Source of the DNA: a bacterium
GTDB taxonomy: Bacteria > Patescibacteriota > Dojkabacteria > SC72
Length of the DNA stretch: 64,000 bases
Direction of reading: 5' to 3'
Assembly (NCBI GenBank): GCA_021107795.1
Contig: JAIOSB010000027.1
Span: 290 to 64,289 of the forward strand
The position numbers and the translations under genes are program-made. How positions within the stretch are numbered: position 1 is the stretch's first letter; every line of letters starts with the position of its first letter. This document shows positions 8,771 through 22,714 of this stretch, piece after piece. Under the pieces are notes generated by a model. That model saw nothing but the letters and a program-made list of their open reading frames with translations, was not told the origin of the DNA and did no database searches.

Positions 8771-9940
8771 TTATATTTCTTTGGCATATTTACCATATAC
8801 CCAACCCTCTTTATCTTGCCCAAAGAGTATTTGATACCAACCTTCCTCTTCTTTTACTACAATATATACCTCCCCATCGTTCGCAACATCTATTTTCTCG
8901 CAGCTATACCACCTACATTCCCTTATATTCACGAACCCAAACTCTGGAGAGACCATTTTTACTAATGTATTATCACCTTTGGTTACAGTAAACTCAACCA
9001 CAAATTCAGAGTCTGAGAAGACTTCCTTCTTGAATTTGTAAATCTCGAATGTTTCTACATTTTCTCCGGGTAATACCTTAGGATCTAACTTAAATGTCAT
9101 CTCTATACTTTCTCCTGGTAGTACATATCTGTCAGAAGAAATATGTGTTGGTTTACTAAAACTGTCCCACTCCCCATTAAGAGCATATATACTTTCTTTA
9201 GAATCTTTCACTGATATATATATTGGGTATTTATCAGAAAGCCATACAAAGTCATTTCCATTCTTTATAGTTACTTTAACTTGCAGTGTATTCCCTATCT
9301 CTACAGCCTCTTCATATTCTACACTCTCAATCTCAGCTACATACTCCAAGTGTTCTCTCTCACTAACCTTCCATTCTTCTAGGCTATCACCAATTGATGA
9401 CTTAAACAGGTTGTTGGATTCCACTAGCTCAAGTTTTGAGAGAGTGGCTTCTGATTCTACGATATTGAAAGAATGGCTGTCATATTGAGTAATTCCATAT
9501 TTGTGAGATAGGTCATTCGCAAGTTCTAGAATGGAGGATTTTGCTTTACTACTTACTTGTGCATTATTCGATAGATATGCTACTACAATATATTTTGCAT
9601 CTGTAAGTTTTAAAGTATCTACATTTTGTGTACTGAATATATCTCCATTTTCATCAATTGCGTAGTGGAAAGGTATATTTCCTAGTTTCAGTTTTGTAAT
9701 TGAGTAGTAATATGTTACATCAAGGTAATCTTCTGTACTTAGGTTTAAGGTGTCGTAACTTCCCTCAACTTGCGTAAAGAGGATTTTAGTTGGTTGTTGG
9801 TATTGATATTCTACACCAGCGACTAGAGAAGTATCAAAATCGGAGTATGATTCTTCATATCCTAATATTGGAGTAGTAAATATTGCAAGGAAAAGGATTG
9901 TTAGTAAGATATTTTTAATTTTCATATCACATTGTACCAA
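8771..9940 (-). CDS. Secreted protein with C-terminal SH3b-like domain; possible cell-wall binding. An amidase_2-like N-region is uncertain.
   Basis: Signal peptide MKIKNILLTILFLAIFTTPILG, so the true start may be Met6. The C-terminus FVNIRECRWYSCEKIDV..GEVYIVVKEEEGWYQILFGQDKEGWVYGKY fits the bacterial SH3 pattern. The FHYAIDENGDIF...VVAYLSNN segment only weakly resembles amidase_2. Confidence 0.4.
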   Translation of the reverse strand: MVQCDMKIKNILLTILFLAIFTTPILGYEESYSDFDTSLVAGVEYQYQQPTKILFTQVEGSYDTLNLSTEDYLDVTYYYSITKLKLGNIPFHYAIDENGDIFSTQNVDTLKLTDAKYIVVAYLSNNAQVSSKAKSSILELANDLSHKYGITQYDSHSFNIVESEATLSKLELVESNNLFKSSIGDSLEEWKVSEREHLEYVAEIESVEYEEAVEIGNTLQVKVTIKNGNDFVWLSDKYPIYISVKDSKESIYALNGEWDSFSKPTHISSDRYVLPGESIEMTFKLDPKVLPGENVETFEIYKFKKEVFSDSEFVVEFTVTKGDNTLVKMVSPEFGFVNIRECRWYSCEKIDVANDGEVYIVVKEEEGWYQILFGQDKEGWVYGKYAKEI

Positions 9941-10882
9941 TTATTCTACACTTTTGACATATTCAGGATCAATTGCATTCATGAATCCTACAAAAGGTAC
10001 ACTAAAGAGTTCTTTTTCATATTCAACATCACATACTCCTGAGATTTCGTAGGAGTAGTATAGGTAGTTTTGATTACAATTGACAAAGTAAAGGACTGGT
10101 TCAACCGTATTGATAGAACATTTTTCATATTTTAATTCCACATCCATTGTCTCATATGAAAACTCGTCAACTTCTATCATTCCAGTTGCATCAATGGTTA
10201 TACTTTTAGGATATTGAGGAGAGGAGAGATATAATTCTAAAACATTGGTTTCCGCTATCATGGGGACTATATATTCCGATTTCTCAATTTGTGCTAGTAA
10301 TACTCTCGCAGTACTTAAATATCCGTTTGTTAAATAGAAATAGTCAGAGCTACCCGAGCCTACTTTCACCTCTTTTTCATCGATAATTCTATTAACCCTA
10401 TACATCCTAAAATTTTCTCCTTCGTCTATGATAGGGGTAGTATATTTAATTGAAGTGTCTAAGTAAGTCGATATGAATTCTTCTATGGTGCCAAATCTTA
10501 TCGCTTCAGGATATTTCGTAAGATTTATCATAAGGACTGTAGTGTCAATATCATATCTTAATACCTCCGCATTATCTTTCTCCCATTTTACAAAATTCAT
10601 ATCAGAGGTCTTTTGCAAACTACTATCTATTTCAAATGCAAATTGGTCTAGATATTCTGGGATTGTGTTAGATTTACAAATATAGAGGGGGGAATCTCCT
10701 GATTCAAGTTCCACATCTATTCTAAGATTGTATTCCTTGTAATCACTGAGGTAGGGATTTGCATCTACTAGCTCACTTTCTAATACGTTTGGCTGGAGTA
10801 AAGAGTAAAGAAGGAATATTCCTGCAAGAAGCATTGTTACTACACCTACCACTATTAAGATTTTTAATGTTTTTTTATTCAT
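9941..10882 (-). CDS. Hypothetical membrane-anchored extracellular protein
   Basis: N-terminal TM (LKILIVVGVVTMLLAGIFLLYSLL); no recognisable domain; stop/start abuts neighbouring genes. Confidence 0.45.
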   Translation of the reverse strand: MNKKTLKILIVVGVVTMLLAGIFLLYSLLQPNVLESELVDANPYLSDYKEYNLRIDVELESGDSPLYICKSNTIPEYLDQFAFEIDSSLQKTSDMNFVKWEKDNAEVLRYDIDTTVLMINLTKYPEAIRFGTIEEFISTYLDTSIKYTTPIIDEGENFRMYRVNRIIDEKEVKVGSGSSDYFYLTNGYLSTARVLLAQIEKSEYIVPMIAETNVLELYLSSPQYPKSITIDATGMIEVDEFSYETMDVELKYEKCSINTVEPVLYFVNCNQNYLYYSYEISGVCDVEYEKELFSVPFVGFMNAIDPEYVKSVE

Positions 10883-10897
10883 AATTTTTATTAATTA

Positions 10898-13807
10898 TTA
10901 AGGACGACAAGGTGGACATTTTGATTCTGATTGAACTCCATTTACACAACCCATATCCACTAAGAAAGCGATAGGGTCAATATATTGACCGTTATGTGTT
11001 ATTGTAAGGTGTACATGAGCTCCTGTCCAGCAATAGAAAACCCCATTCTTATTAGGCCTGGTTGTCCCCAAAGGATCATCAGCAACTATCTCAGCTGCAT
11101 ATTGGTAGATATATGCGACTGGCTCACCAGCTTTGTAGTTACGACCATTTCCTGGAGGTATTAGTTTGGTATGCATGAGATTAAACACATTTCCCTGACC
11201 ATCACTGAACTCTATATTCCACCCAGTAAAACCACCGTCAGTACATCTCCATGCAGCCATGCTTGATAGTTTTGCTGTACAGGTAGAGGTGTCACAATAT
11301 TGTGGAGCGAAGAAAAACTTCATTCCTGCTAAGTCTACTGGGTATAGATTTGTAATATTCTTGTGAGAACACTTTGTATTACTAAATCCCTGAGTACAAC
11401 GATATTTGACATCACCAAATGGACAGCTAGAATTGGTTGGTGCAGGGATATTGATAGGAGGAGGAACAAAGTTACCACTAGAATACAGATAGCCAGAGCT
11501 AAATCCTCCATATCCTCCAAAACCTTTATTTTCGTATATGGTACCTGGTATTTCTCTAGAATATGAATCTACTGAGGCCCTATTGCTATACTCACTTGAA
11601 GCTCCAATTAACAATATTAGTCCAAATACCCCGACAAAAGCATAAACAATTACCTTTATCGACAACTTCGTAACTCCTTCCATAACCCAAGCTACTACCA
11701 CTGTCACGGCTGTACCCAAAGGACCTGCAATTGCAGTACCTGCAAGACCAAATGCTGCGACAATACCTTGAGATATAGCACTTGATAAGGCAGCTCCTCC
11801 TGTTGCCTTCCATGATGTCAATAAAGCCATAGCAGCTTTGTCTTTTGTAAAGAATTTAAGCTTAGAGAGAACAGAGAATACACCCTTTCTTATACCCGTT
11901 TGTACTTTCCCCAAGGTTTTTTCTTGAAATAGACTCAACATCCTTGCAGGTGTGCTAAATATAGCTGTAACTTTAGACCATTGTTCAAGTGCATTTGATA
12001 TTTTCTCAGCTTTAAAAAATTTTTTAGCAAAAGCACTGTTTTCATCCCCTAAACCTTTTAGAACATAGCCCAATATATTTCTGTATTTAGGTTCTTTGGC
12101 AAGCAATTGGATTTGTTCCGTAGAATTAAGTTTTTTGTATTTTTTATAAAATTTCCAGAATTTAGGATCTTGCAATTCTTTGAATACTCCAGACTTAACA
12201 CTCCACATTTTCTTGATTTCTATTTTTTTATTATCTGCCACCCATGCAAACCCTTCTCCTGTAAACATAGATTTTACCCAAGTTGCTGGGTTCATATAGT
12301 AAAATCGAACCATACCATCGTTGTATGCATCTCTTAAATTTCGCTTATATGAAATCTCTGCTGATTTTGATTTCACAAATTCTACTTTATTCCACTTCCC
12401 CTTGCCAATTAATATTGTACCCGCATTATCTACTGGGCAGCCATAATATCCTTTAATAGGGTTGTAGAAATCCCCATTGAGAATAGCTTCAATTCCTCCT
12501 GGTCCAAAAGTCTGTTTCACCCCATAATAAAGACCCTCAGCTGCTCCAATTCCACTCCACAATTGAACACTATTCAAAGATCTTCTCGTCGATCTTAATT
12601 GTTTAATATTCTTTTGAGCTACAGATATCTCAGCTCTCTTCTGTGATTTTGACAATTTGCCATAATCTATAAGATTACTACCTGTACCAAATGTCTTCCC
12701 ACTTCTAATAGCTTTTAATCGGTCTCTTAACTCTTCCTCGTTAGATCGGATATTGCTCTTTGCTCTCTTCAATTTAAAAAGTATTCCCTCATCTTTACTT
12801 CCATCAAGACTCTCTGCTCCCTTCATAGCCCTAGCATCGAGAGTGTCATACTTTTTCCATAACTCTAAGATATTATTCGAACTTTCTAGCTTATTATATT
12901 CCACCAATTCTTTTGCTGTTAGTTGAGACTTCGTCCTGTTACCTAACAAATCGTTTTGCCTTTCTTCAAACTCCAGACCTAAAAGGCTCCTAAATGTTTC
13001 AGCACTAGAAATTGTGTCGGTAATCTTATCTATATTATCTTGAGTGTCTTCCCACCGTTTACTATCCGTTTTCTTGTTCAAATTCTTCAAAGAGGCTTCT
13101 AATGCATTAATACCTTCCATACCATTAAGAGAATTAATCTGATTGGTTAACTTCTCCTTCAGCTCCTTTCCTTTCCTTGTATTTTCATCCACCTTGTTCT
13201 TTCTTGCAATTAATTTTCTAACGTCAGTCCTACTCACATATCCATCTTTTCTTAATTCTTCAGAGGCTCGTACAATCCATTGCCTATCTCTAGGACTTCC
13301 CGAATCTTGGGCTGCCTGTCCTACTGCTCTCTCAAGGGTATTTTTAAGATCCCCATACCCCTCGAATAGCCCCATCTTTTTGGCATATGTACTCCCTGCT
13401 AAATATCTCATAGCCTCACCAGCCCATCTGATATTCTCCATTTTAGATATGGTTTTGTTTGTCTCAAAGAGTTTGTCTATGAATTCATCAGGCTTCTCGA
13501 AGAAATCGGGTAACCCACTTGCTGTCAGCTTGACTACAGGTATACGACTAGTCTGTACTCCCACTTTGATAGTCGGATCAACCAGTCCTTGCATAGCTCC
13601 TAGGAATTGATCTCCCACAAACATCCCTGGCATAGCCAATGCATCTACCAAGGTTTGTACATACTCAGAACTTGCTTGACTATCTGCTGTTGGTGGAGGT
13701 CTTACTGGTTTCCTTTGCTCTGGAGGTAATTCAGATTGTTCCAGAACAAAACCTAGGATATCTGATACAGATGATATTGTTTTATCCTTACCCTTATATC
13801 CAGCCAT
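10898..13807 (-). CDS. Large bitopic protein: ~690-aa cytoplasmic coiled-coil-rich N-domain, 2 TM helices, extracellular C-terminal M23 (LytM-type) peptidase-like domain
   Basis: No signal peptide. The TM pair is ...IVAAFGLAGTAIAGPLGTAVTVVVAWV... / ...VIVYAFVGVFGLILLIGA... The C-terminus has the M23 pattern VFNLMHTKLIPPGNGRNYKAGEPVAYI...GTTRPNKNG...CWTGAHVHLTITHNGQYIDP (HxH with flanking Gly-rich loops). Confidence 0.55.
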   Translation of the reverse strand: MAGYKGKDKTISSVSDILGFVLEQSELPPEQRKPVRPPPTADSQASSEYVQTLVDALAMPGMFVGDQFLGAMQGLVDPTIKVGVQTSRIPVVKLTASGLPDFFEKPDEFIDKLFETNKTISKMENIRWAGEAMRYLAGSTYAKKMGLFEGYGDLKNTLERAVGQAAQDSGSPRDRQWIVRASEELRKDGYVSRTDVRKLIARKNKVDENTRKGKELKEKLTNQINSLNGMEGINALEASLKNLNKKTDSKRWEDTQDNIDKITDTISSAETFRSLLGLEFEERQNDLLGNRTKSQLTAKELVEYNKLESSNNILELWKKYDTLDARAMKGAESLDGSKDEGILFKLKRAKSNIRSNEEELRDRLKAIRSGKTFGTGSNLIDYGKLSKSQKRAEISVAQKNIKQLRSTRRSLNSVQLWSGIGAAEGLYYGVKQTFGPGGIEAILNGDFYNPIKGYYGCPVDNAGTILIGKGKWNKVEFVKSKSAEISYKRNLRDAYNDGMVRFYYMNPATWVKSMFTGEGFAWVADNKKIEIKKMWSVKSGVFKELQDPKFWKFYKKYKKLNSTEQIQLLAKEPKYRNILGYVLKGLGDENSAFAKKFFKAEKISNALEQWSKVTAIFSTPARMLSLFQEKTLGKVQTGIRKGVFSVLSKLKFFTKDKAAMALLTSWKATGGAALSSAISQGIVAAFGLAGTAIAGPLGTAVTVVVAWVMEGVTKLSIKVIVYAFVGVFGLILLIGASSEYSNRASVDSYSREIPGTIYENKGFGGYGGFSSGYLYSSGNFVPPPINIPAPTNSSCPFGDVKYRCTQGFSNTKCSHKNITNLYPVDLAGMKFFFAPQYCDTSTCTAKLSSMAAWRCTDGGFTGWNIEFSDGQGNVFNLMHTKLIPPGNGRNYKAGEPVAYIYQYAAEIVADDPLGTTRPNKNGVFYCWTGAHVHLTITHNGQYIDPIAFLVDMGCVNGVQSESKCPPCRP

Positions 13808-13817
13808 ATATTTTTAT

Positions 13818-15266
13818 TTACTTTATTAATTTCCCTAACAATGGAATTCCGCCCAAAGCCTGTTTTGCAGCTTGTGCTGCATCCCCTGCATCTTTTGAGG
13901 TCGTAGGTGGTAGTAAAACTTTAGCGTATACATCTGCTTTAGAAGCTATAAAGATGACGAAGATTTGTAATACAAAAATTAATAATCCACCAAGCAAGTC
14001 TTGACTCTGATCAATTTGCGCTGTTGTTTGAGGAAGTGTGAGCTTATCCGGTCCTGGTAGCGATAAACCACCATCGCTTACAGCATAAAGAACTCCTGGG
14101 ATATTAAGAATTGCAAATGTAATCGGATATACTAACACATTTCTCATAATACTTTTCATCCAATTGATAAAACTTGCACTTTGACCTGGAATAGCTGACA
14201 TAGCAATTTGGAAAGGACCTGTTATTACAGCAATTAGAATACCAATATATGCCTTTATTAAAGTTAGAAAAACCTTAAAAACACCGACTGTCACTACAGC
14301 TAAAATAGCCAATACCAAGATTAATCCTACAAGTCCAACGACGACACCTGTAAGAGGGGCTGCAATAAATCCAACGACAACACCTATAGCTGCAGTTCCA
14401 CCAACAAGACCCAGTAACCCACCCTTACCTCCAAAGTCTGCAAATTGAGTCATTTCTTCAAAAAGGCCTTCCGGTGTAAACGCCCTAAATATACTACCCA
14501 AACTTTCCAGTGTAATAGGGTCACTATATTCACTACTACTAAAAATATCTACTAGAAGGACCATCATGAGCCCTCCAATATCTATTATCACTCCCGCTAT
14601 TGCAAAACTAAAGGTAACCCCTATTAACGCAAGAATAATGTTTGGTAGAGTATTCCCAAGAGTCACTAATGTCTGTCCTCCTAGTTTACTTCTAAACATG
14701 ATCATGAATCCAACAACTATCATGATTAATATGAAGAATACATAAGTAATATTCCTAACCTGTGACCATAATCCACTGATACCAGTATTAACCAACTCAT
14801 CATATCCTGAGTCAAATCCACTAGTTGTAATACTTGCATACACAGAACTATCTGCCTGATAACCAGGTACCCACTCTTCTGCCAAATGCGCATATACATT
14901 AACAAGAGGTTGTGATTCGTATAAAGCATATACTCCATCGGATGTCATACCATATATACCTCTTTTCATGTCAGGCGATATCGTATCTGAGTCCAACATT
15001 GCTTGATAGTCTGAAGATATTTCTGGTGCTAGATAAATAATTGCATTAACCACTGCGGTATTGGCACTAACAGCCTGTGACCTAGCAGAGTTATACTCAT
15101 CTCCCTCTGCCCCCTGCCCCACATTCACAGCTTCTACAGTAGATCCATATGATCCACTAAGGTCTAAACCTGTGTATTCTTGAGCATACGCATTAGTAGA
15201 TAAGAAGAAGAAAGCTATAACAAGTACTGACCAAAACAAATCTTTATTAAATCTATTTATTTTCAT
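13818..15266 (-). CDS. Polytopic membrane protein, VirB6/TrbL-like topology (signal peptide, ~150-aa extracytoplasmic segment, ~7-8 Gly-rich TM helices)
   Basis: Signal peptide LFWSVLVIAFFFLSTNAYAQ, then hydrophilic Ser/Tyr-rich segment, then consecutive hydrophobic Gly-rich helices (GLLGLVGGTAAIGVVVGFIAAPLTGVVVGLVGLILVLAILAVV...). Confidence 0.4.
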   Translation of the reverse strand: MKINRFNKDLFWSVLVIAFFFLSTNAYAQEYTGLDLSGSYGSTVEAVNVGQGAEGDEYNSARSQAVSANTAVVNAIIYLAPEISSDYQAMLDSDTISPDMKRGIYGMTSDGVYALYESQPLVNVYAHLAEEWVPGYQADSSVYASITTSGFDSGYDELVNTGISGLWSQVRNITYVFFILIMIVVGFMIMFRSKLGGQTLVTLGNTLPNIILALIGVTFSFAIAGVIIDIGGLMMVLLVDIFSSSEYSDPITLESLGSIFRAFTPEGLFEEMTQFADFGGKGGLLGLVGGTAAIGVVVGFIAAPLTGVVVGLVGLILVLAILAVVTVGVFKVFLTLIKAYIGILIAVITGPFQIAMSAIPGQSASFINWMKSIMRNVLVYPITFAILNIPGVLYAVSDGGLSLPGPDKLTLPQTTAQIDQSQDLLGGLLIFVLQIFVIFIASKADVYAKVLLPPTTSKDAGDAAQAAKQALGGIPLLGKLIK

Positions 15267-15290: not shown

Positions 15291-16631
15291 TTACATCTTA
15301 TATACAGGATCTGTTCTATTCTCACTCTCCCATACATGAAAATTCATATAATCCATTCTATCAGGAAATACCTCCTGAGGCATATTATCATGTGACTGAA
15401 ATTCTAATTCTTGAGTAATATAGTCAATATCCCAAGCACAAGAAAGAGCCTTATTACCATATCCTCCAATATTTGCATAACAAGTTGTTAAGACATAAAT
15501 CTTCTGTGACTCATCAGCATTTGGAATTGAAAAACTTCCATTTCTTAACTTATTGAACTCCGTTACACACTTTCCATCAATACAATCTGCTTTACTACCC
15601 CAAGGAGACTCCATAATTACAACAATACTTGCAGTATTTATACAATTCTCATCTGCACCACTTATGCTAGAACACCTATCTGCATCAAAGATATTCATTA
15701 TTTCCTTAAAAAACGATATTACAATTTGCTTAAGACTTGGAGTACAACCTATCATCTCTGTATCTAAATCCATATTGATAAATGTAGTGTTCGTATCACA
15801 ATCATCTATACCATCATCTTCTTGCTCTGGAATATTTTCATAATATCCTGGATAATTCTGTGATTGACCCAATACATATGATCCAGACAAATATTTCTCT
15901 GGTGTCGGGTTAGAATAGTTTCTACAAGCTGCTCCACAATCATTAACTTGATACTTAGAGATAGAGATTTCACTTGTACCTGAGCCTTTGGCATTAGCAG
16001 TACCTTCAATGGAATAATTAATACCAAAAGATTTCGTTTTAGAAGCTTCCCCAGCATCTATAATAGCTTGTGTCTGAGTCTCTCCTGGGTACATATTCCC
16101 TGCAACCACTTCTTTATTAATCATCTCTCCCGCAGGTCTTAGTGTCCAGTGTTCAGTACCATCTTCTTCAGTAAATATTTGCCTAACAGATGAGTCCATA
16201 GTTGGAGATCCATTCAAAAGAGGTGGTACTTCGATACTAGTAAGAGAAATCGAAGCCTTTCTATCTACCATATCCCCTATACTCAGTTCTCTATCTTCTT
16301 TACCCATGTCCGCATCGAAAGAGAAAGTCCTAGCACATACTTTCTCGGAGGAATAGCTGTAGAAAGGAGTTACACATACATCCTGTTCTCCTAAAACCAT
16401 TCCTGGTTTAACCTCTCTAATCGGTTTGAAATTTTCATCTATTTCAAAGAACAAAGCTTGTTCCAATTGCCAGTCCTCTTCATTGGCCTCTACTTTCTCA
16501 CGAAGTACATACTCTTGAGTATCAGCTTGGATATGAGTAACCCTTTGTGTCTTGTTTATAACAAAAACCCCAAACAAAATAAGGAAAGATAAAAGAAGGA
16601 CAGGTTTTCGCGAATACAATTTCTTTGACAT
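15291..16631 (-). CDS. Cys-rich secreted/anchored hypothetical protein
   Basis: N-terminal TM (PVLLLSFLILFGVFVI), many paired cysteines (CGAAC, CDTNTT, CIDGKC), acidic. Confidence 0.45.
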   Translation of the reverse strand: MSKKLYSRKPVLLLSFLILFGVFVINKTQRVTHIQADTQEYVLREKVEANEEDWQLEQALFFEIDENFKPIREVKPGMVLGEQDVCVTPFYSYSSEKVCARTFSFDADMGKEDRELSIGDMVDRKASISLTSIEVPPLLNGSPTMDSSVRQIFTEEDGTEHWTLRPAGEMINKEVVAGNMYPGETQTQAIIDAGEASKTKSFGINYSIEGTANAKGSGTSEISISKYQVNDCGAACRNYSNPTPEKYLSGSYVLGQSQNYPGYYENIPEQEDDGIDDCDTNTTFINMDLDTEMIGCTPSLKQIVISFFKEIMNIFDADRCSSISGADENCINTASIVVIMESPWGSKADCIDGKCVTEFNKLRNGSFSIPNADESQKIYVLTTCYANIGGYGNKALSCAWDIDYITQELEFQSHDNMPQEVFPDRMDYMNFHVWESENRTDPVYKM

Positions 16632-16669
16632 AGTACAATATACATCGAAAAGAAGATGTATTCAATTGA

Positions 16670-18283
16670 TTAATCTATAAGAATGCCATAATCAGAAAGT
16701 AATGGGATTGAACTGTATGCTGAATTACTTGAATCAGAGACAGAGACTTCTACTTCTTCAGAAACAGCTTCTCCAACAGTCATTTCTGTAGCTGAAGGGT
16801 TTGTGAAATATTTAGAACTAAAGTTAACGATATCATCATTACTTTTATCGAAATATCCGCCCTCTGCATCTCTTGCTCCACCAATTGTCAAAATCCAAGA
16901 CCCTTCACTATCTACTAAGGTAGATATCGGGTAGCTTGTACCACTAGAACCAATACCGTCATTGTCCGTAAAGGTTGCAACAACAAGAGCATTTTTATAA
17001 TCCACAACCTCAAGAATACCTACAATGGTCTCAAACTGTGGAGGGCTGGATTGTGTAGCAAAAGTTTTTACTTCACCTTCATATTCATATACATCTTCTC
17101 CCGAGTATATTTCAAAAAAGTATGTTGTCTCTGGTTGTAATTGTGCAATCTCAATACTATGCAAGAAATATTCTCCTTGAGACGCTATACCATCTCTCTC
17201 ATCTCTCCCTTTATTAGACAAATCTGATGTAGTAGTTCCATACATTACATAGCCTTGTTGTGATTCCTTAGAGAACCATATTATCGAACAACTAACATCC
17301 GTAAGATTTGTAATCATTACACTCTCTACTCCATATACCTCCGGTTGAGAAGGCACTACTCCACTATTTGATACCATATCAATCCAAGCTAAATCACTCT
17401 TAAGTTCGTATAGGTTATCGGGAGTTTCATCTTCAATTTTCTCTTCTTCTTCTACCACAGGTACTACATATGAGTCTTTTTCTTCAATTATCATATCAGG
17501 TTTTTCACCTTCTTCTGTAGCTACAAGTTTCGTAGCGTCAGAGATATAGGTATCATATGGACTTCCAAAGATTACAAGCGTTTCCGTTAGTTTCATACTA
17601 GAATCAAAGATTGTCCCATATTGTCCTTCTACCACACCTGCATTCCCAACACTTGACACTCCCAGTATTACTAAGTCTGTTGAGTCTAACAGTGTATACA
17701 TACTCTTATCCTCAATACTTCTTAACGATGAGAGATCCACTAACCAGTTCCCATTGCTAGATGGAACAGTTGCTACTGGGTATGTCGTTTTGTCCTTGGG
17801 GAATATATATATTAGGGCATCGTCATCACTTATATCAGAGAGTTCTCCATGTACGGGTGTAGGGGTTGGAATATCTGCACTAATATTGGCTGTAGTAAAA
17901 CTAAACTCTTCCCCTTCTATATCTGTGTACATATCTTCTCCTGATATGATTTTAAAATCATATTCTGTATTTGGTTCTAAACTTTGAATTTCAACGTAGT
18001 GAGTATTTCTCTTCTCATTTCCCCTCTTATCTATCACTGGATTTTTCTCAGTTCCATTGAGTACAGGGATTACCGACCCTATTACTTCACTTTCAGTAGT
18101 CCATGTTACTGTGATGGAATTGGTAGTAAGGTTTGCAAGTATTGCATCTTTGGGTTGTGTATTTACTCCTGCATTTGTAAACCATCGTGCACCACTGTAT
18201 ATGGCAAAGAGTGTAAGAGGAATACCTAGTACCAGCGTAATTATTGTAGTTAGTTGCTTCTTTTGGTATGGAGTTATGTACAT
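16670..18283 (-). CDS. N-terminally anchored protein with two Fn3-like (purple-acid-phosphatase-N-like) domains
   Basis: TM anchor LTTIITLVLGIPLTLFAIYS. Repeat 1 is NSITVTWTTESEVIGSVIPVLNG...HYVEIQSLEPNTEYDFKIISG. Repeat 2 is CSIIWFSKESQQGYVMYG...LHSIEIAQLQPETTYFFEIYSG. Confidence 0.5.
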   Translation of the reverse strand: MYITPYQKKQLTTIITLVLGIPLTLFAIYSGARWFTNAGVNTQPKDAILANLTTNSITVTWTTESEVIGSVIPVLNGTEKNPVIDKRGNEKRNTHYVEIQSLEPNTEYDFKIISGEDMYTDIEGEEFSFTTANISADIPTPTPVHGELSDISDDDALIYIFPKDKTTYPVATVPSSNGNWLVDLSSLRSIEDKSMYTLLDSTDLVILGVSSVGNAGVVEGQYGTIFDSSMKLTETLVIFGSPYDTYISDATKLVATEEGEKPDMIIEEKDSYVVPVVEEEEKIEDETPDNLYELKSDLAWIDMVSNSGVVPSQPEVYGVESVMITNLTDVSCSIIWFSKESQQGYVMYGTTTSDLSNKGRDERDGIASQGEYFLHSIEIAQLQPETTYFFEIYSGEDVYEYEGEVKTFATQSSPPQFETIVGILEVVDYKNALVVATFTDNDGIGSSGTSYPISTLVDSEGSWILTIGGARDAEGGYFDKSNDDIVNFSSKYFTNPSATEMTVGEAVSEEVEVSVSDSSNSAYSSIPLLSDYGILID

Positions 18284-18390: not shown

Positions 18391-18879
18391 ATGAGTCAAG
18401 AGGATATTACATATGTATTTATAGATGCTCAGAATCTATATCTGGGTATAAGAGATCTAGGCTGGCATATTGATTATAGAAAACTCAATGTTTACCTGAA
18501 GGAAAAGTATCAAGCTCAATGTCTTTATATGTATATTGGATATCTGAAAGGAAATCAAAAGCTCTATACCAAACTTACACAGGCTGGTTTCGATATTATA
18601 TTCAAGGATACAGTGCGATATGGAAGAAACCGGGTTATTAAAGGTAACGTTGATGTAGATCTCACAGTAGATGTAATAAGAAAAGCATCCCTATACAACA
18701 AAGCCATTTTTATAAGTGCGGATGGGGATTTTTGTGCACTTTACAACTACCTTCTCAAAGAAAAAGGGAAAGAAATTTTAATACTAATCCCCAATATTTA
18801 TAAATATTCAAAGTTACTATTAAAATATAAGGGTAGACTAAGATTTATGAATGATTTGAGAGCCAAGATTGGGGAATAA
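18391..18879 (+). CDS. NYN-domain (LabA/DUF88-like PIN-fold) protein
   Basis: FIDAQNLY...GNVDVDLTVDV...FISADGDF acidic triad arrangement typical of NYN/LabA-like nucleases. Confidence 0.6.
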   Translation: MSQEDITYVFIDAQNLYLGIRDLGWHIDYRKLNVYLKEKYQAQCLYMYIGYLKGNQKLYTKLTQAGFDIIFKDTVRYGRNRVIKGNVDVDLTVDVIRKASLYNKAIFISADGDFCALYNYLLKEKGKEILILIPNIYKYSKLLLKYKGRLRFMNDLRAKIGE

Positions 18880-19014
18880 AAAGGGGGAGTGTTGCTTGTA
18901 AGACGAAACTTACAACCTTCCCTCCCTCGTGATAGCTCATTATAATAAATATCTACGATAATTACAACACGAGCAACACTAATTCATATCATGTTCACAA
19001 TCAGAAAAGGCTTT

Positions 19015-19329
19015 TTACTTCTTCATCCCTGAGAGAAACTCTGTAAGCGTAGTTAGTAATCCTGATATTTGTCTAACAGGTTGTATTACTGCTTGGTTTA
19101 CTTCTTCTACAGTCCCTTTTGTAGTACTTACCATTGCTTGAACATCATCAAGTATCACATTCGTCTTAATTAGTGTTTTGTTTGCTTCTTCAATGATCTT
19201 TGTACTACCCTGAACTACTCCTCTGGTATCTTTGGTAACCATACCTAGTTGGTAGAGTATGAATGTAAAGAATGCTACAGGTATCCCCATAAGTATCATC
19301 CAGTATATTGATGGTATTGTGTCGAACAT
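19015..19329 (-). CDS. Small single-TM membrane protein (DUF948-like?)
   Basis: 104 aa, one N-terminal TM (IYWMILMGIPVAFFTFILYQL) followed by a helical coiled-coil-like tail. Confidence 0.35.
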   Translation of the reverse strand: MFDTIPSIYWMILMGIPVAFFTFILYQLGMVTKDTRGVVQGSTKIIEEANKTLIKTNVILDDVQAMVSTTKGTVEEVNQAVIQPVRQISGLLTTLTEFLSGMKK

Positions 19330-19375
19330 ATGTATAGTGTTTTAATTAATCTATACCTTAGAATATCAGATATCC

Positions 19376-22300
19376 CTAGTTATTACCACATTGACCATCT
19401 AATTCACCATCTGGATGCCATATTAATGATTTGCATGTACTGTCTTCTGGTTGAAAGCTAGATATTCTCACAAAGTAGCCATTTGATGTAGTTATTGGAT
19501 AATCAAAACCATATTCTGTTCCCTCAGAGACTTGCAACCCCTCAAACATACCTTTTGATACAGGCCACCATGTTATATTATCTGCAGTTAAGCCTGAGAT
19601 TCTATTCACTGAGTCAATGAGTGTACGTGCTGTAAATGCTTTAGTATACCCACTTACTCCGATTAAGTTCCAACCAGGTATAAAACTTACAGGTACATTC
19701 GTATTAATATCAAATCCAGGAATAGGTATTCTACTATTCCTAGTAGCTACTATCGCATATCCAAAGCCTGGTAGTAGAGGGAAGTCAGAGCCGGCAGGAG
19801 TTCCTGATTCTGTAGACTTACTCATAATCCCTCCCTTCCACGATCCGTTGGAGAAGTATGTTATCTGACTGATTACTTCAAATTGGCTATTAGCTTCTTC
19901 CAATAGTTGTTCTGCAGTGTAGGATTCCCCGACATTCAGTGCAGGATAGAAATCGAATGATACTAGGTTTAAGCCCTCTTTCAGCACTATATCATACGCA
20001 TTAGATACTTGATTGACACTTAGTTCCAGCACACTAGATGATACTAAGTAGTCTCCATTTGCCACATCAAATTTCCCGTCATTGTTTATATCTTTATAAT
20101 ATATATATTTATAGTCAGCATTATAGTATTGCACGACGTTCTCACTATCTGGTCTAATTACTTCATAGTAACCATCTTTAGTCACACTTAAAAACAGCTC
20201 TTCCGTCTCTTGGGCCGACACTTTAGGTGCTGAGAAAGAGGCGATTTCCTGGAGGATATTATCCAAATTTAATGTACTAGTTTCAGAACATTCTCCAAAC
20301 GGTACAATTTTATATCCAGCTACACATCCTTTACCAACTTCTTGTTTTTGTTTTACTCCAAACCCACTATCACAACAGACATACCCTTCTTTAACATACT
20401 CTGTATCGAATGTAGCTGTACCACCTCCTGTTTTTATAACTGTATTAAAACTCTCACCATATATGGTTTCTAAATCAGCTTTCTGACCACAGGCATTAAA
20501 TTGAACCTCTATATCCCCTTTTGAGGTCAGGCAGTAATATTGAAGACCCTCAATTTCCTCCAAAGGTAGTAACCAACGATCGTCAAAAGAATCTTTATTA
20601 AAATCTCCGAGACTTTGCTTTGTTGGAGTCGCATAAGGAGTCTCGACTGATGGCCCAGAATAGTAATAATAATCTCCATCATCATCCAGATATATGTAAT
20701 CTCCATTCCAAGTAGGACTACCAACGTCATTTGCTATCACAAGATCCTCCGTTATAGTCTCTCTTAAAAAGTACGAGGCAGAGACACACTCTTTATTACC
20801 GCACTCATCACAATTGATAATATTTCCTTCATCCTTATTGAAACAGTACATCTCGTTTTCCAAATTAACAGATTTCACTACCTTATCAGCACAATACTCA
20901 TAAAAGTCTACCGTTTCATACTCACATTGACCAATTCCAGTTGGGTAGTAATTAGGGATATATACATAGCTAGATTCCTTTTTTACATTATGACAACACT
21001 CTAAGGCAATCACTTCTCCACTATCATTAGTTACAAGAGGTGCGAAATCTTCTGCAGACAGATTCCCTGATAATGAAGATTCCTCACCCTCCTCATTTGA
21101 GACGCTAGGTTGGCACTGAAACCAGAAGGATTCGCAGGGTGTGCCGTAATCGTCCTGGCTGGGACAGTTTATGAGATCATAGTCTGTAGTATAGTCTGAG
21201 CAGCGGAGTTTTCCCTCCTCCTCTTGATCTACACTTTCCTTCGGTTTAGGAGAAGGTAGTCCAGGATTATTACCCATACACTCGCTTTTCTCTTTATCCC
21301 AATAACAACCTCCATAATAATTCTCATTACAAACAGTTTCTGTAGTATAACCACTACAACCAGTTATCTCAGGACCCTCTACTACAAGTTCTATCTTGTC
21401 CTCAAGAAATCCCATAATCTCAGCACTCCCCTGCAAATCTCCAATAATATCTTCATATTCCGACGAATCTACAACGTCGACATTACCTGATACACTGTTT
21501 TTAACAAGTTCTCCATCTAATAAAGTATAGAGATTCCCTGCAGCATCTACTACTTGATCCTCTCCTATAACCTTCTTTTCTCCATCAACCTCAACCATCT
21601 GCCTACCCCTCTCCATACACCCCGCAGGCTTTGGACAAAGAGCTTGCAATCGGATATTAAATTGGCGAACTCCATTCCATAGACAAGTCTTGTAACAAGG
21701 ACTTGTTGGTGCACAACCACCAGCAAGAATAGGTCCATAAGAGACTGTTTTCCCTTCACTGTCCTCACACCTTGCCTCATCCCATGCAGCATTGACATAA
21801 GGTATAAAGGATTCTAATAAATCCTCTGCATTATTCTCAAAATCTATATCCTCTTCACTATTACCCAAGATACTCTCTACAGGAATATCATCTGTTCCAA
21901 AGGTTATCATATAGCACTGCTTTGGAGTAAAAGACTCATATTGATAACAAACCTCACCATTCATACCATTTATATCATCAAATACAGAACCATTTAAATC
22001 TCTAAAAGCCCCCTTATCAATACTCCACCCACCCTCACTATTAGTAGAAGCTGAAAGTAAATTAGAAATCAAAACATTACTCTCATCTACTACCCCTACA
22101 AAAACCATAGAATCTTTAGAGTCATCCTCATACAACAATCCTCCCGTATCAAGCTTCATACCATAAATCTTCCCATACATTGGATTAGGGACCACCATCT
22201 CGACAACATCCTGTATAACAGTTGTAACAGAAAACTCACTGAGAGTATCAAAAGCATATTCATATGAGTTTGTCTTACTACTAGACCATAGGAGTGAACC

Positions 22301-22714
22301 ATTTGATAATACAAAATTGTAAATCTTTCCTTCTTCAAGACCTGAAACAGTAACATGATGAACGTAATATTTATTATTCTTTACCTTGTATTCATTCAAA
22401 CAGTCAATACTATCTACACCACTCTCAAGTGCATCATTATTCAAATCTTCAACACAACTGGCCTGGGCTAAAACAACATCTCTATCATCATATGCAAACC
22501 TAACACCATTACTCCAGTACATTACAAATCCCTGTGTAGGCTGATGTGTTAGCCAGGATATAGTTGCAGAAGATGCAGTAATATTGGTAACCCTGACATC
22601 ATATGCTTGGAGCTTATTGCCCTGTACAATATAGTAAACTAGATAAGAGAAGGATATTAGCACAATAACTGTTAAGAGTCCCAATCCAAACATCTTGCTT
22701 CTTTTCATATTCAA
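19376..22714 (-). CDS. Giant (1112 aa) Cys-rich surface protein with N-terminal anchor and Fn3-like (PAP-N-like) domain
   Basis: TM anchor FGLGLLTVIVLISFSYLVYYIV, then the Fn3-like signature VTNITASSATISWLTHQPTQGFVMYWSNG...HHVTVSGLEEGKIYNFVLSNG. After that come >40 cysteines in clustered pairs (CDECGNKEC, ECCHN, VCCDSG). Confidence 0.5.
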   Translation of the reverse strand: MNMKRSKMFGLGLLTVIVLISFSYLVYYIVQGNKLQAYDVRVTNITASSATISWLTHQPTQGFVMYWSNGVRFAYDDRDVVLAQASCVEDLNNDALESGVDSIDCLNEYKVKNNKYYVHHVTVSGLEEGKIYNFVLSNGSLLWSSSKTNSYEYAFDTLSEFSVTTVIQDVVEMVVPNPMYGKIYGMKLDTGGLLYEDDSKDSMVFVGVVDESNVLISNLLSASTNSEGGWSIDKGAFRDLNGSVFDDINGMNGEVCYQYESFTPKQCYMITFGTDDIPVESILGNSEEDIDFENNAEDLLESFIPYVNAAWDEARCEDSEGKTVSYGPILAGGCAPTSPCYKTCLWNGVRQFNIRLQALCPKPAGCMERGRQMVEVDGEKKVIGEDQVVDAAGNLYTLLDGELVKNSVSGNVDVVDSSEYEDIIGDLQGSAEIMGFLEDKIELVVEGPEITGCSGYTTETVCNENYYGGCYWDKEKSECMGNNPGLPSPKPKESVDQEEEGKLRCSDYTTDYDLINCPSQDDYGTPCESFWFQCQPSVSNEEGEESSLSGNLSAEDFAPLVTNDSGEVIALECCHNVKKESSYVYIPNYYPTGIGQCEYETVDFYEYCADKVVKSVNLENEMYCFNKDEGNIINCDECGNKECVSASYFLRETITEDLVIANDVGSPTWNGDYIYLDDDGDYYYYSGPSVETPYATPTKQSLGDFNKDSFDDRWLLPLEEIEGLQYYCLTSKGDIEVQFNACGQKADLETIYGESFNTVIKTGGGTATFDTEYVKEGYVCCDSGFGVKQKQEVGKGCVAGYKIVPFGECSETSTLNLDNILQEIASFSAPKVSAQETEELFLSVTKDGYYEVIRPDSENVVQYYNADYKYIYYKDINNDGKFDVANGDYLVSSSVLELSVNQVSNAYDIVLKEGLNLVSFDFYPALNVGESYTAEQLLEEANSQFEVISQITYFSNGSWKGGIMSKSTESGTPAGSDFPLLPGFGYAIVATRNSRIPIPGFDINTNVPVSFIPGWNLIGVSGYTKAFTARTLIDSVNRISGLTADNITWWPVSKGMFEGLQVSEGTEYGFDYPITTSNGYFVRISSFQPEDSTCKSLIWHPDGELDGQCGNN

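What the first reader, a model, noticed from the sequence alone, without database searches (positions are those of the whole stretch)
8771..22714. 14-kb minus-strand block of exclusively secreted/membrane proteins: candidate envelope-spanning apparatus (T4SS-like or host-attachment machinery)
Eight consecutive same-strand genes encode only envelope proteins and have no housekeeping function. They are an SH3b-like wall-binding protein, a membrane protein, a 969-aa protein with a large cytoplasmic coiled-coil domain, two TM helices and an extracellular M23 peptidase, and a VirB6/TrbL-topology polytopic protein. The rest are a Cys-rich secreted protein, a double-Fn3 anchored protein and a 1112-aa Cys-rich giant. 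Gaps between genes are 0-40 nt, which suggests operon(s). A peptidoglycan hydrolase with TM helices plus a VirB6-like channel protein is the arrangement used by Gram-positive conjugative T4SSs. A VirB4 ATPase with a PrgI-like partner lies 35 kb downstream in the same window. None of these proteins has an assignable family beyond domain level, and the assemblage as a unit appears undescribed. If this organism is a CPR-type episymbiont, it could be the host-contact or DNA/effector-translocation machine.
Basis: partly seen in the sequence, partly recalled or inferred. Interest (0 to 1): 0.8.

Follow-up and report, generated by a model that had tools for sequence, protein, structure and literature searches.

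The report
Detached half of a CPR type IV secretion system
This gene block in a tiny Candidatus Dojkabacteria (candidate phyla radiation, CPR) bacterium most likely encodes the membrane channel, wall-cutting enzyme and surface proteins of its type IV secretion system, sitting 35 kb from the motor genes and too divergent for standard searches to recognise.

Summary
Eight minus-strand genes (8771-22714) all encode signal- or TM-bearing proteins. They are not strictly consecutive: a plus-strand NYN gene (18391-18879) splits the block into two units.

- **969-aa protein:** the order is a cytoplasmic N-terminal region, then TM helices, then an external M23 peptidase. Microgenomatia proteins with the same layout lie two genes upstream of PrgI.
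- **313-aa protein:** it is homologous (hhalign 97%) to the gene immediately upstream of PrgI in those clusters.

The block is therefore the counterpart of the Microgenomatia T4SS cluster. In Dojkabacteria it is consistently separated from PrgI-TrsD-VirB4 (0 of 56 loci linked) and has no pilin array.

The Fn3, Cys-rich and PGRP/SH3b proteins are linked to the core only by conserved order within the class. I found no prophage signal. I rate it a new variant of a known system, of moderate interest.

The parts
13818..15266 (-). 482-aa VirB6-like polytopic membrane protein: signal/anchor, helical ectodomain of about 140 aa, then a TM core with the invariant motifs GFMIMFR.K.GGQ and TFSFAIAG.
10898..13807 (-). 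969-aa protein: N-terminal helical region of about 660 aa with no signal peptide (inferred cytoplasmic), 2-3 TM helices at about 672-739, and a C-terminal Cys-rich M23/LytM metallopeptidase domain at about 790-969 (inferred external).
   Evidence: The H, D, H and HxH residues are invariant. Profile against the PDB: all top hits are M23, best E 2.3e-5. Foldseek on the model: about 30 top hits are M23/LytM. 10 of 11 Cys lie in the last 224 residues, and 6 K/R precede the TM helices. hhalign to the Microgenomatia T4SS-cluster 'bigTM' family gives Prob 93.8 over the M23 region only. That family carries Pfam M23 in 16 of 25 members.
9941..10882 (-). 313-aa bitopic protein: N-terminal TM anchor plus an ectodomain of about 280 aa. 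Member of the family encoded immediately upstream of PrgI in Microgenomatia T4SS clusters. Candidate VirB8-position component, untested.
   Evidence: Family-versus-family hhalign: Prob 97.1, E 6e-11, 239 columns. jackhmmer from the window protein recruits L036:13727-14788, which is the gene before PrgI in that locus. No Pfam or PDB sequence match.
8771..9940 (-). 389-aa secreted protein: N-terminal PGRP/amidase_2-like domain, a middle domain, and a C-terminal SH3b wall-binding domain.
   Evidence: Pfam SH3_3, 1.3e-7. Family profile against the PDB: PGRP-SD 2rkq at 1.4e-5 plus many other PGRPs and an amidase, and autolysin SH3b 4krt at 1.8e-7. It follows the 313-type gene in 30 of 32 Dojkabacteria loci.
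15291..16631 (-). 446-aa secreted Cys-rich protein (12 Cys), always immediately upstream of the VirB6-like gene.
   Evidence: Adjacent to the VirB6-like gene in 58 of 58 loci. No Pfam, PHROG or PDB match. Several Cys are invariant.
16670..18283 (-). 537-aa N-terminally anchored surface protein with two Fn3/Pur_ac_phosph_N-like domains.
   Evidence: Pfam Pur_ac_phosph_N 7.5e-17 and fn3 2e-7. It precedes the 446-type gene in 43 of 46 loci.
19015..19329 (-). 104-aa small N-terminally anchored helical protein with weak DUF948 similarity.
   Evidence: Pfam DUF948, 1.6e-4, below the cutoff. Conserved upstream of the Fn3 gene in 31 of 37 loci.
19376..22714 (-). 1112-aa N-terminally anchored Cys-rich (34 Cys) giant surface protein with an N-terminal Fn3-like domain. 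A variable member of the block, present in roughly half of related loci.
   Evidence: Pfam Pur_ac_phosph_N 1.9e-6. Absent from L003 and many other loci. It sits where Microgenomatia clusters carry a 775-1550-aa Cys-rich protein, but no homology was detected (hhalign Prob 0.2).
18391..18879 (+). NYN-domain gene on the opposite strand. It interrupts the block and is not part of the system.
   Evidence: Pfam NYN 1.4e-16. No gene at this position in L001 or L003, nor in most of the other Dojkabacteria loci listed.
49911..53759 (+). T4SS energizing module: PrgI/VirB3-like (49911-50732), TrsD-like (50729-51379) and VirB4 ATPase (51369-53759). This is the presumed partner of the block.
   Evidence: Pfam PrgI 3.4e-6 and TraG P-loop 6.3e-28. 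NCBIfam TrsD 8e-7. No VirB6 or hydrolase gene lies next to it. The window's PrgI, TrsD and VirB4 find homologues 6-9 kb downstream of the VirB6-like gene in Microgenomatia loci.

Best explanation
The block encodes the membrane-embedded, wall-breaching and surface-exposed part of the Patescibacteria type IV secretion system (related to Gram-positive MPF-FATA systems). In Candidatus Dojkabacteria this part has been separated from the PrgI(VirB3)-TrsD-VirB4 energizing module.

**Proposed mechanism (inferred).**
- The 482-aa VirB6-fold protein oligomerises in the cytoplasmic membrane as the translocation channel or stalk base. It docks to PrgI and VirB4, which are encoded 35 kb away.
- The 969-aa protein spans the membrane. 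Its N-terminal region of about 660 aa faces the cytoplasm, perhaps as a scaffold for the ATPase module. Its M23 endopeptidase domain faces outward and locally cuts peptidoglycan cross-links, either in the cell's own wall or in the host's, so the machine can assemble or reach the host. This is the VirB1/PrgK role.
- The 313-aa bitopic protein is a conserved structural subunit, possibly in the VirB8 position.
- The PGRP-like/SH3b protein binds or trims peptidoglycan.
- The Fn3 and Cys-rich proteins would form the extracellular, host-contacting part. They sit where Microgenomatia carry a VirB2-like pilin array.

**Shown here:** the folds and domains, the homology, and the gene-order relationships. 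**Inferred:** physical assembly with VirB4, membrane topology, the substrate, and the role of the outer proteins.
For: 2. **T4SS context of homologues.** L004 and L007 carry four to six T4SS_pilin genes, the VirB6-like gene, an M23 protein, and PrgI plus a TraC-like gene. Of non-Dojkabacteria loci with at least 9 kb of downstream sequence, 25 of 58 have PrgI/TrsD/VirB4 on the same strand, 6.0-9.0 kb away. Pilin-like genes occur in 75 non-Dojkabacteria loci.
3. **Same order and architecture.** Both lineages show: Cys-rich giant, VirB6-like, long cytoplasmic-TM-hydrolase protein, N-anchored protein of about 330 aa.
4. **Homology of neighbours.** The 313 family matches the pre-PrgI family (Prob 97.1, E 6e-11). 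The 969 family matches the bigTM family over M23 (Prob 93.8). Negative controls stay below 2%. M23 is present in 16 of 25 bigTM proteins, with NAGPA or CHAP swaps in others.
5. **Missing parts near VirB4.** The window's VirB4 locus has no VirB6 and no hydrolase.
6. **Tight order within Dojkabacteria.** Adjacency is 446-to-VirB6-like 58/58 and VirB6-like-to-969 59/59, holding down to about 30% identity.
7. **Literature.** VirB6 is reported as scarce in Microgenomatia, 'suggesting extreme sequence divergence', and T4SS genes are essential in Southlakia (PMC12102498; PMC10633639).
Against: - The window protein itself has no significant sequence match to TrbL/VirB6 or PrgH. The structural E-values are modest (about 0.1) and the model is of medium confidence (pLDDT 70.6).
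- In Dojkabacteria the block is never within 10 kb of VirB4 (0 of 56 loci). Co-function with VirB4 therefore has no support from linkage in this lineage.
- Dojkabacteria also carry two further VirB6-like paralogues near dnaA. The VirB4 partner could be one of those instead.
- Synteny within the class is weak evidence, because the flanking housekeeping genes (RsmB/RsmE, UvrD, G5, TPR, EF-G) are equally conserved.
- No homology was found between the 969 N-terminal region, or the 1112, 446 and 537-aa proteins, and any Microgenomatia cluster protein.
- No pilin, coupling protein or relaxase was seen in the window.
Confidence: 0.68

Rival explanations
1. The block is a VirB4-independent envelope or host-contact apparatus that reuses T4SS-derived parts (VirB6-like channel, hydrolase, 313-type subunit). 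It works alone, or with the other VirB6-like paralogues, as an adhesion, wall-penetration or uptake device rather than as part of the VirB4-driven machine.
For: The block is always separate from PrgI/TrsD/VirB4 in Dojkabacteria (0 of 56 loci). There are three VirB6-like paralogues per genome, two of them next to dnaA. There is no pilin array here. The 660-aa cytoplasmic region of the 969-aa protein has no known counterpart.
Against: In Microgenomatia the orthologous genes lie in one same-strand cluster ending in PrgI-TrsD-VirB4. The Dojkabacteria VirB4 locus otherwise has no channel protein or hydrolase. No alternative energy source is encoded in the block.
Confidence: 0.15
2. The block is a cell-wall remodelling or cell-division operon (M23 endopeptidase, PGRP-like/SH3b protein, membrane partners) for the organism's own peptidoglycan. 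Its resemblance to T4SS parts is incidental.
For: Two peptidoglycan-directed proteins are present. The block sits among housekeeping genes with conserved chromosomal synteny. Coiled-coil-plus-LytM proteins such as EnvC and DipM act in division, and they appear among the Foldseek hits.
Against: The VirB6 fold of the adjacent, always-linked 482-aa protein argues against it. So does the homology of the 313 family to the pre-PrgI gene. The same gene set lies inside pilin/VirB4 clusters in Microgenomatia. No FtsEX-like or other division genes are in the block.
Confidence: 0.1
3. The block is a prophage or tail-like remnant, with the 969-aa protein being a tape-measure-type protein (coiled coil, hydrophobic segment, M23).
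For: Tape-measure proteins can combine long helices, hydrophobic segments and M23 domains (general knowledge). One weak Foldseek hit is to a cyanophage pre-ejectosome protein (prob 0.38).
Against: None of the block's eight proteins has a PHROG match below E 0.02. There are no capsid, tail, integrase or tRNA features. GC content does not deviate. The position is fixed between RsmE and UvrD across the whole class.
Confidence: 0.02
4. The genes are unrelated envelope-protein genes that happen to be neighbours in a highly syntenic small genome. They do not form a functional unit.
For: Flanking housekeeping genes are as syntenic as the block. The outer genes (1112, 104, Fn3, SH3b) have no detectable counterpart in Microgenomatia clusters.
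Against: The core adjacencies (58/58 and 59/59) persist in loci whose flanks are rearranged, such as L136, L137, L146 and L147. The core trio recurs in the same order in a different class. Gaps within the six-gene unit are 0-38 nt.
Confidence: 0.05

Closest known systems
Patescibacteria (CPR) T4SS, as in Southlakia epibionticum ML1 SEML1_0006-0019 (Wang et al. 2023, PMC10633639) and surveyed by Quinonero-Coronel et al. 2025 (PMC12102498)
   Same: Chromosomal system with a monoderm-type VirB4, PrgI/VirB3 and TrsD. It has a VirB6-like membrane protein and associated peptidoglycan hydrolases. No relaxase or coupling protein lies nearby.
   Different: - Here the VirB6-like gene and the hydrolase lie about 29 genes from virB4, outside the +/-20-CDS window used in that survey.
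- The VirB6-like protein is not detected by the Pfam TrbL model on the window protein.
- No VirB2-like pilin array is present.
- The hydrolase is fused behind a 660-aa cytoplasmic region.
- The accessory proteins (446, 537, 1112, 389) have no described counterparts.
Enterococcus pCF10 Prg/Pcf T4SS (PrgH VirB6-like, PrgI, PrgJ VirB4, PrgK hydrolase, PrgL VirB8-like)
   Same: Same logic: a polytopic VirB6-like protein, VirB3, VirB4, a large membrane-anchored multidomain peptidoglycan hydrolase that includes a LytM/M23-type domain, a bitopic VirB8-like protein, and surface adhesins instead of a pilus (gene layout; PrgK domains from PMC12102498 refs 75 and 76).
   Different: - PrgH (266 aa) shows no profile similarity to this family.
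- PrgK is N-terminally anchored and entirely extracellular. The 969-aa protein has most of its mass on the cytoplasmic side.
- pCF10 is a conjugative plasmid with a relaxase and a coupling protein. This is a split chromosomal locus with neither detected.
R388 TrwI/VirB6 and Legionella DotA (solved T4SS inner-membrane and stalk proteins)
   Same: These are the best structural matches of the 482-aa model. All have an N-terminal extracytoplasmic helical domain followed by a bundle of TM helices.
   Different: Sequence identity is 8-16%. Those proteins work in diderm machines with VirB5, VirB7, VirB9 and VirB10 or IcmX partners, which are absent here. The family-specific motifs GFMIMFR.K.GGQ and TFSFAIAG are not known from them.
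Microgenomatia T4SS clusters recovered here (for example L011, L012, L052, L065, L085)
   Same: Homologous VirB6-like protein, homologous 313-type protein, a cytoplasmic-TM-M23 protein with the same layout, and the same relative gene order. The PrgI, TrsD and VirB4 are homologous to the window's.
   Different: Microgenomatia keep everything in one cluster of about 20 kb, with up to 10 pilin-like genes and two interspersed minus-strand cytoplasmic genes. Dojkabacteria lack the pilins, carry Fn3, Cys-rich and PGRP/SH3b genes instead, and have the ATPase module elsewhere.

Membership tests
VirB6/TrbL (T4SS polytopic inner-membrane subunit) | Polytopic membrane protein with at least 5 TM helices and an extracytoplasmic N-terminal or loop domain | tested here: met
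   Hydropathy shows an N-terminal signal/anchor plus about 6 or more TM segments. The AF2 model shows a helical ectodomain at 36-160 and then long TM helices.
VirB6/TrbL (T4SS polytopic inner-membrane subunit) | Significant sequence match to the Pfam TrbL (PF04610) or PrgH profiles | tested here: not met
   The window protein has no Pfam or NCBIfam hit. The family profile finds no VirB6 in the PDB. hhalign against PrgH gives Prob 0.3. Only transitive weak hits exist: TrbL in 3 of 44 distant members (best 5.4e-4), one member at 5.2e-6, and one TrbL_5 hit.
VirB6/TrbL (T4SS polytopic inner-membrane subunit) | Fold similarity to experimentally solved VirB6-type proteins | tested here: met
VirB6/TrbL (T4SS polytopic inner-membrane subunit) | Encoded with VirB4, VirB3 and other T4SS genes | tested here: inconclusive
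   Not met in this genome (35 kb away) or in any of 56 Dojkabacteria loci. Met for family members in Microgenomatia: 25 of 58 loci have PrgI/TrsD/VirB4 6-9 kb downstream, and 75 loci carry pilin-like genes.
Peptidase M23 / LytM domain | Conserved Zn-ligand and catalytic residues (H...D, H, HxH) | tested here: met
   H24, D34, H88, H140 and H142 of the domain alignment are invariant in 10 sequences. The H-to-D spacing is 6-9 residues rather than the canonical HxxxD.
Peptidase M23 / LytM domain | Sequence and structure match to known M23 enzymes | tested here: met
   Pfam misses it on the window protein. The profile against the PDB returns 24 M23/LytM-type chains among 25 matches, best 2.3e-5. 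Foldseek's top hits (about 30) are M23/LytM at prob about 1. The L003 orthologue has a weak Pfam M23 hit.
Monoderm (MPF-FATA-like) T4SS as a system | VirB4 ATPase with a VirB3/PrgI partner (and TrsD in this clade) | tested here: met
   Located at 49911-53759: PrgI 3.4e-6, TrsD 8e-7, TraG P-loop 6.3e-28.
Monoderm (MPF-FATA-like) T4SS as a system | Dedicated peptidoglycan hydrolase (VirB1, PrgK or TraG type) | tested here: met
   The 969-aa M23 protein. Its Microgenomatia counterparts lie two genes before PrgI and carry M23 (16 of 25), NAGPA (3) or CHAP (1). The domain type and topology differ from PrgK.
Monoderm (MPF-FATA-like) T4SS as a system | VirB8-like bitopic subunit (NTF2-like fold) | not tested
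   The 313-aa family is the positional candidate (bitopic, immediately before PrgI in Microgenomatia). There is no sequence match to PrgL or VirB8.
Monoderm (MPF-FATA-like) T4SS as a system | Coupling protein (VirD4/TcpA) and relaxase, needed for conjugative function | tested here: not met
   Pfam scans of nearly all sizeable ORFs in the 64-kb window found neither. The rest of the genome was not examined. Absence near virB4 is typical of the CPR clade (PMC12102498).
Prophage tail / tape-measure module | Phage structural neighbours and PHROG matches | tested here: not met
   None of the block's proteins has a PHROG hit below E 0.02. The surrounding genes are housekeeping. There is no tRNA or integrase.
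PGRP / N-acetylmuramoyl-L-alanine amidase_2 (389-aa protein, N-terminal domain) | Sequence match to the PGRP/amidase_2 fold, and presence of Zn-ligand residues for catalysis | tested here: inconclusive
   The family profile matches PGRP-SD (1.4e-5), PGLYRP3, other PGRPs and an amidase. By eye, the consensus does not show the usual N-terminal His ligand. Catalytic competence was not established.

The most novel reading that the evidence does not exclude
Dojkabacteria and Microgenomatia share a distinct T4SS subtype with three features.

1. Its channel protein belongs to a very large (over 4,000 clusters) VirB6-fold family that current profiles do not recognise.
2. Its wall-cutting enzyme is the external tip of a transmembrane protein of about 1,000 aa. 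The large cytoplasmic region of that protein could link hydrolase exposure or activity to the VirB4/TrsD motor, giving a 'through-the-membrane' hydrolase not described for any T4SS.
3. In Dojkabacteria the pilus has been replaced by Fn3 and Cys-rich surface proteins plus a PGRP/SH3b wall binder, and the machine is encoded in two (or, with the dnaA-proximal paralogues, three) separate loci.

This would point to a contact-dependent device aimed at the host's peptidoglycan, not a conjugation system.
Probability: 0.3. Interest if true: 0.75.

Novelty: new variant of a known kind. Interest (0 to 1): 0.55.

Why it matters
T4SS genes are essential for epibiotic growth in the one genetically tractable CPR bacterium (PMC10633639). 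Surveys nevertheless could not find VirB6, VirB8 or VirB1 in several large CPR classes, and attributed this to extreme divergence (PMC12102498).

This locus, with the related loci recovered here, fills part of that gap.
- It gives a concrete candidate for the missing VirB6: a family of over 4,000 clusters with diagnostic motifs.
- It gives a conserved hydrolase subunit with an unusual transmembrane layout.
- It gives a conserved bitopic subunit adjacent to PrgI.

It also shows that searches restricted to the neighbourhood of virB4 miss half of the system in Dojkabacteria. These proteins are testable targets for structure prediction, cryo-ET and genetics, and so for working out how ultra-small bacteria attach to and exploit their hosts.

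Tried and rejected
- **Pfam, NCBIfam and PHROGs on the eight proteins.** Only SH3_3, Fn3 and weak DUF948 were found. There was no phage signal.
- **tRNA, Rfam and composition scans.** Nothing was found and there is no island signature.
- **Third word-indexed homologue search, using the 969 alignment.** It returned the same 13 proteins, so that search was wasted.
- **Sequence profiles of the 482 family against the PDB.** No VirB6 hit. hhalign against pCF10 PrgH gave Prob 0.3.
- **Library and record failures.** The afdb50 fold library was unavailable. The R388 record BR000038 is not in the plasmid collection. No hhalign against a curated TrbL alignment was therefore done.
- **Pairwise BLASTP and hhalign of the 969-aa protein against single Microgenomatia proteins.** No significant similarity. 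Only family-versus-family hhalign linked the M23 regions.
- **hhalign of the 446 family against the Microgenomatia Cys-rich giants.** It gave a high 'probability' on a 1-32-column, 0%-identity alignment. I rejected this as an artefact.
- **Other family comparisons.** 1112 against the Cys-rich giants, 389 against the pre-PrgI family, and 969 against the minus-strand proteins showed no relationship.
- **313/pre-PrgI family against Pfam and the PDB.** No informative hit.
- **Promoter and terminator scan.** Counts equal the shuffled expectation, so it says nothing about operon structure.
- **Pilin search.** No VirB2-like pilin was found in the window or in Dojkabacteria block loci.
- **Pfam on the other genes.** The Microgenomatia minus-strand genes and the dnaA-proximal neighbours gave no hits.

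Full report
**1. What is in the sequence**

The window is chromosomal DNA of about 36% GC with housekeeping genes throughout: EF-G, UvrD, RsmE, RsmB, PNPase, IF2, NusA, DnaJ, AlaRS, LepA and RecF. The 482-aa and 969-aa proteins are identical to GenBank 'hypothetical protein K8R20_02915/02910 [bacterium]'. Their close relatives are labelled Candidatus Dojkabacteria/WS6, a class of Patescibacteria (CPR).

Seven have an N-terminal hydrophobic segment. The 969-aa protein has no N-terminal signal and carries its hydrophobic segments at 687-739.

Two corrections are needed. First, a plus-strand NYN-domain gene (18391-18879, Pfam 1.4e-16) lies inside the block. Second, the intergenic gaps are 0, 15, 10, 24, 38, 731 and 46 nt. 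There are therefore at least two units: 1112-104, and 537-446-482-969-313-389. No gene is annotated at the NYN position in the relatives L001 and L003, so the NYN gene looks like a local insertion.

**2. The individual proteins**

*482 aa.* Pfam, NCBIfam and PHROGs find nothing.
- An exhaustive profile search shows a very large family: 4,093 clusters at E<=1e-3 and 1,521 at E<=1e-30. The TM core is conserved and the N-terminal domain is variable.
- An AlphaFold2 model (43-sequence alignment, pLDDT 70.6) was compared with the PDB by two methods.
- Foldseek ranks four chains of R388 TrwI/VirB6 first (prob 0.85-0.99, E about 0.1). Every later hit has prob 0.2 or lower.
- At sequence level the link is only transitive and weak. 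TrbL (PF04610) hits 3 of 44 distant members (best 5.4e-4). In another set of 80 members there is one TrbL hit at 5.2e-6, one TrbL_5 hit, and seven weak TrbC/VirB2 hits.
- Profiles against the PDB and hhalign against pCF10 PrgH found nothing.

*969 aa.* Pfam finds nothing.
- The C-terminal domain keeps invariant H, D, H and HxH residues.
- A profile of this domain retrieves M23/LytM-type chains as 24 of its 25 PDB matches (best 9gy1, 2.3e-5).
- The Foldseek hits of the whole-protein model (pLDDT 59.6) begin with about 30 M23/LytM chains at probability about 1.
- The N-terminal region of about 660 residues is helical and matches nothing.
- Ten of eleven Cys lie in the last 224 residues, and six K/R precede the TM segment. 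This fits an N-in, C-out topology. The topology is inferred, not shown.
- Two family members have swapped M23 for an HExxH-containing domain.

*389 aa.* The C-terminal SH3b domain is confirmed. A family profile also detects an N-terminal PGRP/amidase_2-like domain (PGRP-SD 1.4e-5, plus many other PGRPs and an amidase).

*313 aa, 446 aa, 104 aa.* No informative family.

*537 aa and 1112 aa.* Both have Fn3/Pur_ac_phosph_N-like domains.

**3. Context in relatives**

*Within Dojkabacteria.* I examined three loci from exact-protein look-ups and about 55 more from a metagenome scan. The order [1112]-104-Fn3-446-VirB6-like-969-313-SH3b is conserved down to about 30% identity of the VirB6-like protein. 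Adjacency counts are in the table.

| Adjacent pair | Loci with the expected neighbour |
|---|---|
| 446 to VirB6-like | 58/58 |
| VirB6-like to 969 | 59/59 |
| 969 to 313 | 34/39 |
| 313 to SH3b | 30/32 |
| Fn3 to 446 | 43/46 |
| 104 to Fn3 | 31/37 |
| 1112 to 104 | 18/21 |

This is weaker evidence than it looks, because the flanking housekeeping genes are equally syntenic. The core does persist in a few loci with rearranged flanks (L136, L137, L146, L147). None of 56 such loci has PrgI, TrsD or VirB4 within 10 kb.

*Outside Dojkabacteria.* Distant family members from the exhaustive search were traced to contigs. L004 and L007 carry four to six T4SS_pilin genes, a giant protein, the VirB6-like gene, and a protein of about 1,000 aa, which in L007 has a weak Pfam Peptidase_M23 hit. 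A protein of about 200-330 aa follows, then PrgI and a TraC-like gene.

A scan of species-representative genomes with this sub-family returned 80 loci. Their titles are Woesebacteria, Pacebacteria, Cerribacteria and Microgenomates, that is Microgenomatia. Many other records are evidently mislabelled.

Local ORF calling with phmmer and jackhmmer showed a stereotyped cluster, in this order:
- pilin-fusion genes
- a Cys-rich protein of 775-1,550 aa
- a minus-strand gene of about 300 aa
- the VirB6-like gene
- a minus-strand gene of 750-1,300 aa
- a protein of 900-1,500 aa with no signal peptide, TM helices at about 70% of its length, and a C-terminal ectodomain
- an N-anchored protein of about 330 aa
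- PrgI, TrsD, VirB4

The window's own PrgI, TrsD and VirB4 detect the last three genes 6.0-9.0 kb downstream of the VirB6-like gene in 25 of 58 loci with enough flank. This is a lower bound, because the flank ends at 10 kb. Pilin-like genes occur in 75 non-Dojkabacteria loci, with up to 10 per locus, and in none of the Dojkabacteria block loci.

*Family-versus-family hhalign.*
- The Dojkabacteria 313 family and the Microgenomatia 'gene before PrgI' family are homologous (Prob 97.1, E 6e-11, 239 columns). jackhmmer also recruited one such gene directly.
- The 969 family and the large TM protein family share the M23 region (Prob 93.8, E 1.7e-7).
- Five unrelated pairings used as controls gave Prob below 2%.
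- In the Microgenomatia large TM family, 16 of 25 members have Pfam M23 (best 4.9e-22). Three have NAGPA and one has CHAP. The C-terminal hydrolase is therefore exchangeable on a conserved layout, as in the Dojkabacteria family.

**4. Interpretation**

The block is the Dojkabacteria counterpart of the part of the Microgenomatia T4SS cluster that lies upstream of PrgI. In Dojkabacteria the PrgI-TrsD-VirB4 module sits elsewhere, 35 kb or about 29 genes away in this window. That module has no VirB6 or hydrolase gene beside it.

The most likely function is therefore the channel (VirB6-like), the wall-breaching enzyme (969, in the VirB1/PrgK role) and a further structural subunit (313) of the VirB4-driven machine. 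The Fn3, Cys-rich and PGRP/SH3b proteins would be its external, wall- or host-contacting parts, replacing a pilin array.

This agrees with the literature. CPR T4SSs are MPF-FATA-like, usually lack a relaxase and a nearby coupling protein, and are essential for epibiotic growth in Southlakia. VirB6 was reported as 'scarce' in Microgenomatia, 'suggesting extreme sequence divergence', and VirB1 homologues are mostly not near virB4 (PMC12102498; PMC10633639; PMC12857230).

Four things remain inferred. The first is physical association with VirB4. The second is which of three VirB6-like paralogues serves VirB4, since two more lie in tandem near dnaA. The third is the membrane topology. The fourth is whether the peptidoglycan enzymes act on the cell's own wall or on the host's.

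**5. Rivals**

- *A VirB4-independent apparatus built from T4SS-derived parts.* This is not excluded. It is favoured by the consistent separation from VirB4 and by the paralogues.
- *A pure cell-wall or division operon.* This is unlikely given the VirB6 fold and the Microgenomatia context.
- *A prophage or tape-measure origin.* This is effectively refuted. No block protein has a PHROG hit below E 0.02, there are no phage neighbours, and the chromosomal position is fixed.
- *Chance adjacency.* This is unlikely for the core and remains possible for the outer genes.

**6. Novelty and score**

CPR T4SSs are already described, so this is not a new kind of system. Four points appear to be new relative to the papers read:
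- recognition of this large divergent VirB6-fold family as the T4SS channel candidate in Dojkabacteria and Microgenomatia
- the cytoplasmic-TM-hydrolase layout of the associated peptidoglycan enzyme
- the conserved 313/pre-PrgI subunit
- the split, pilin-less arrangement in Dojkabacteria

I rate it a new variant of a known kind, with interest 0.55.

Noticed in passing
window 18391-18879 (+): A NYN-domain (predicted RNase) gene lies on the opposite strand inside the block. No gene sits at this position in L001, L003 or most of the other related loci. A NYN gene also occurs near dnaA in another Dojkabacteria genome (L005 3744-4256), which suggests a mobile or frequently relocated small gene.
   Followed up: partly
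L005 8068-12637; L006 8198-12538; also L150 and L151: Dojkabacteria carry VirB6-like paralogues a few genes from dnaA/rpmH/rnpA/yidC and next to a PilM-like gene. In L005 and L006 these are two tandem genes (about 590-640 aa and 845-880 aa). They are flanked by unannotated genes of 233 aa and 660-684 aa. One genome therefore has three VirB6-like genes in two loci, neither next to virB4.
   Followed up: partly
P0130 and P0131 (969-family members); Microgenomatia bigTM family (alignment A11): The C-terminal external enzyme domain is exchangeable on a conserved N-terminal/TM scaffold. Two Dojkabacteria proteins have an HExxH-containing domain in place of M23. Among the Microgenomatia counterparts, three have NAGPA and one has CHAP in place of M23.
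   Followed up: partly
alignment A8 (80 VirB6-like proteins from L004-L167): Seven of 80 VirB6-like proteins give weak Pfam TrbC/VirB2-pilin hits (best 1e-4). This is more than hit TrbL. The region responsible was not located.
   Followed up: no
window 32446-33240 (+), 34604-36466 (+), 42142-43863 (+): A sortase gene lies near two large surface proteins (Big_7 and DUF11 domains). Each has an N-terminal signal and a C-terminal hydrophobic segment, so they are candidate sortase substrates. They are unrelated to the block but belong to the same cell-surface repertoire.
   Followed up: no
L009-L087 record titles; L085 (CP011212.1): Many CPR genome records carrying this cluster are titled 'uncultured Pseudomonadales', 'Methylococcaceae', 'Gammaproteobacteria' or 'Woesearchaeota'. 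A complete 853-kb genome titled 'candidate division TM6 bacterium GW2011_GWF2_28_16' carries the full Microgenomatia-type cluster. The titles look unreliable for taxonomy.
   Followed up: no
Microgenomatia loci, for example L011 8888-9772 (-) and 11664-13910 (-): Two minus-strand genes with no TM segment and no Pfam hit (about 300 aa and 750-1,300 aa) are conserved inside the otherwise plus-strand T4SS cluster, on either side of the VirB6-like gene. Their role is unknown and they have no counterpart in the Dojkabacteria block.
   Followed up: partly
window 24622-25628 (-): A DUF4145 protein (218 aa) and an unannotated 109-aa ORF sit between RsmB and PNPase, a position occupied by nothing in L001 or L003. 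This may be another small insertion.
   Followed up: no
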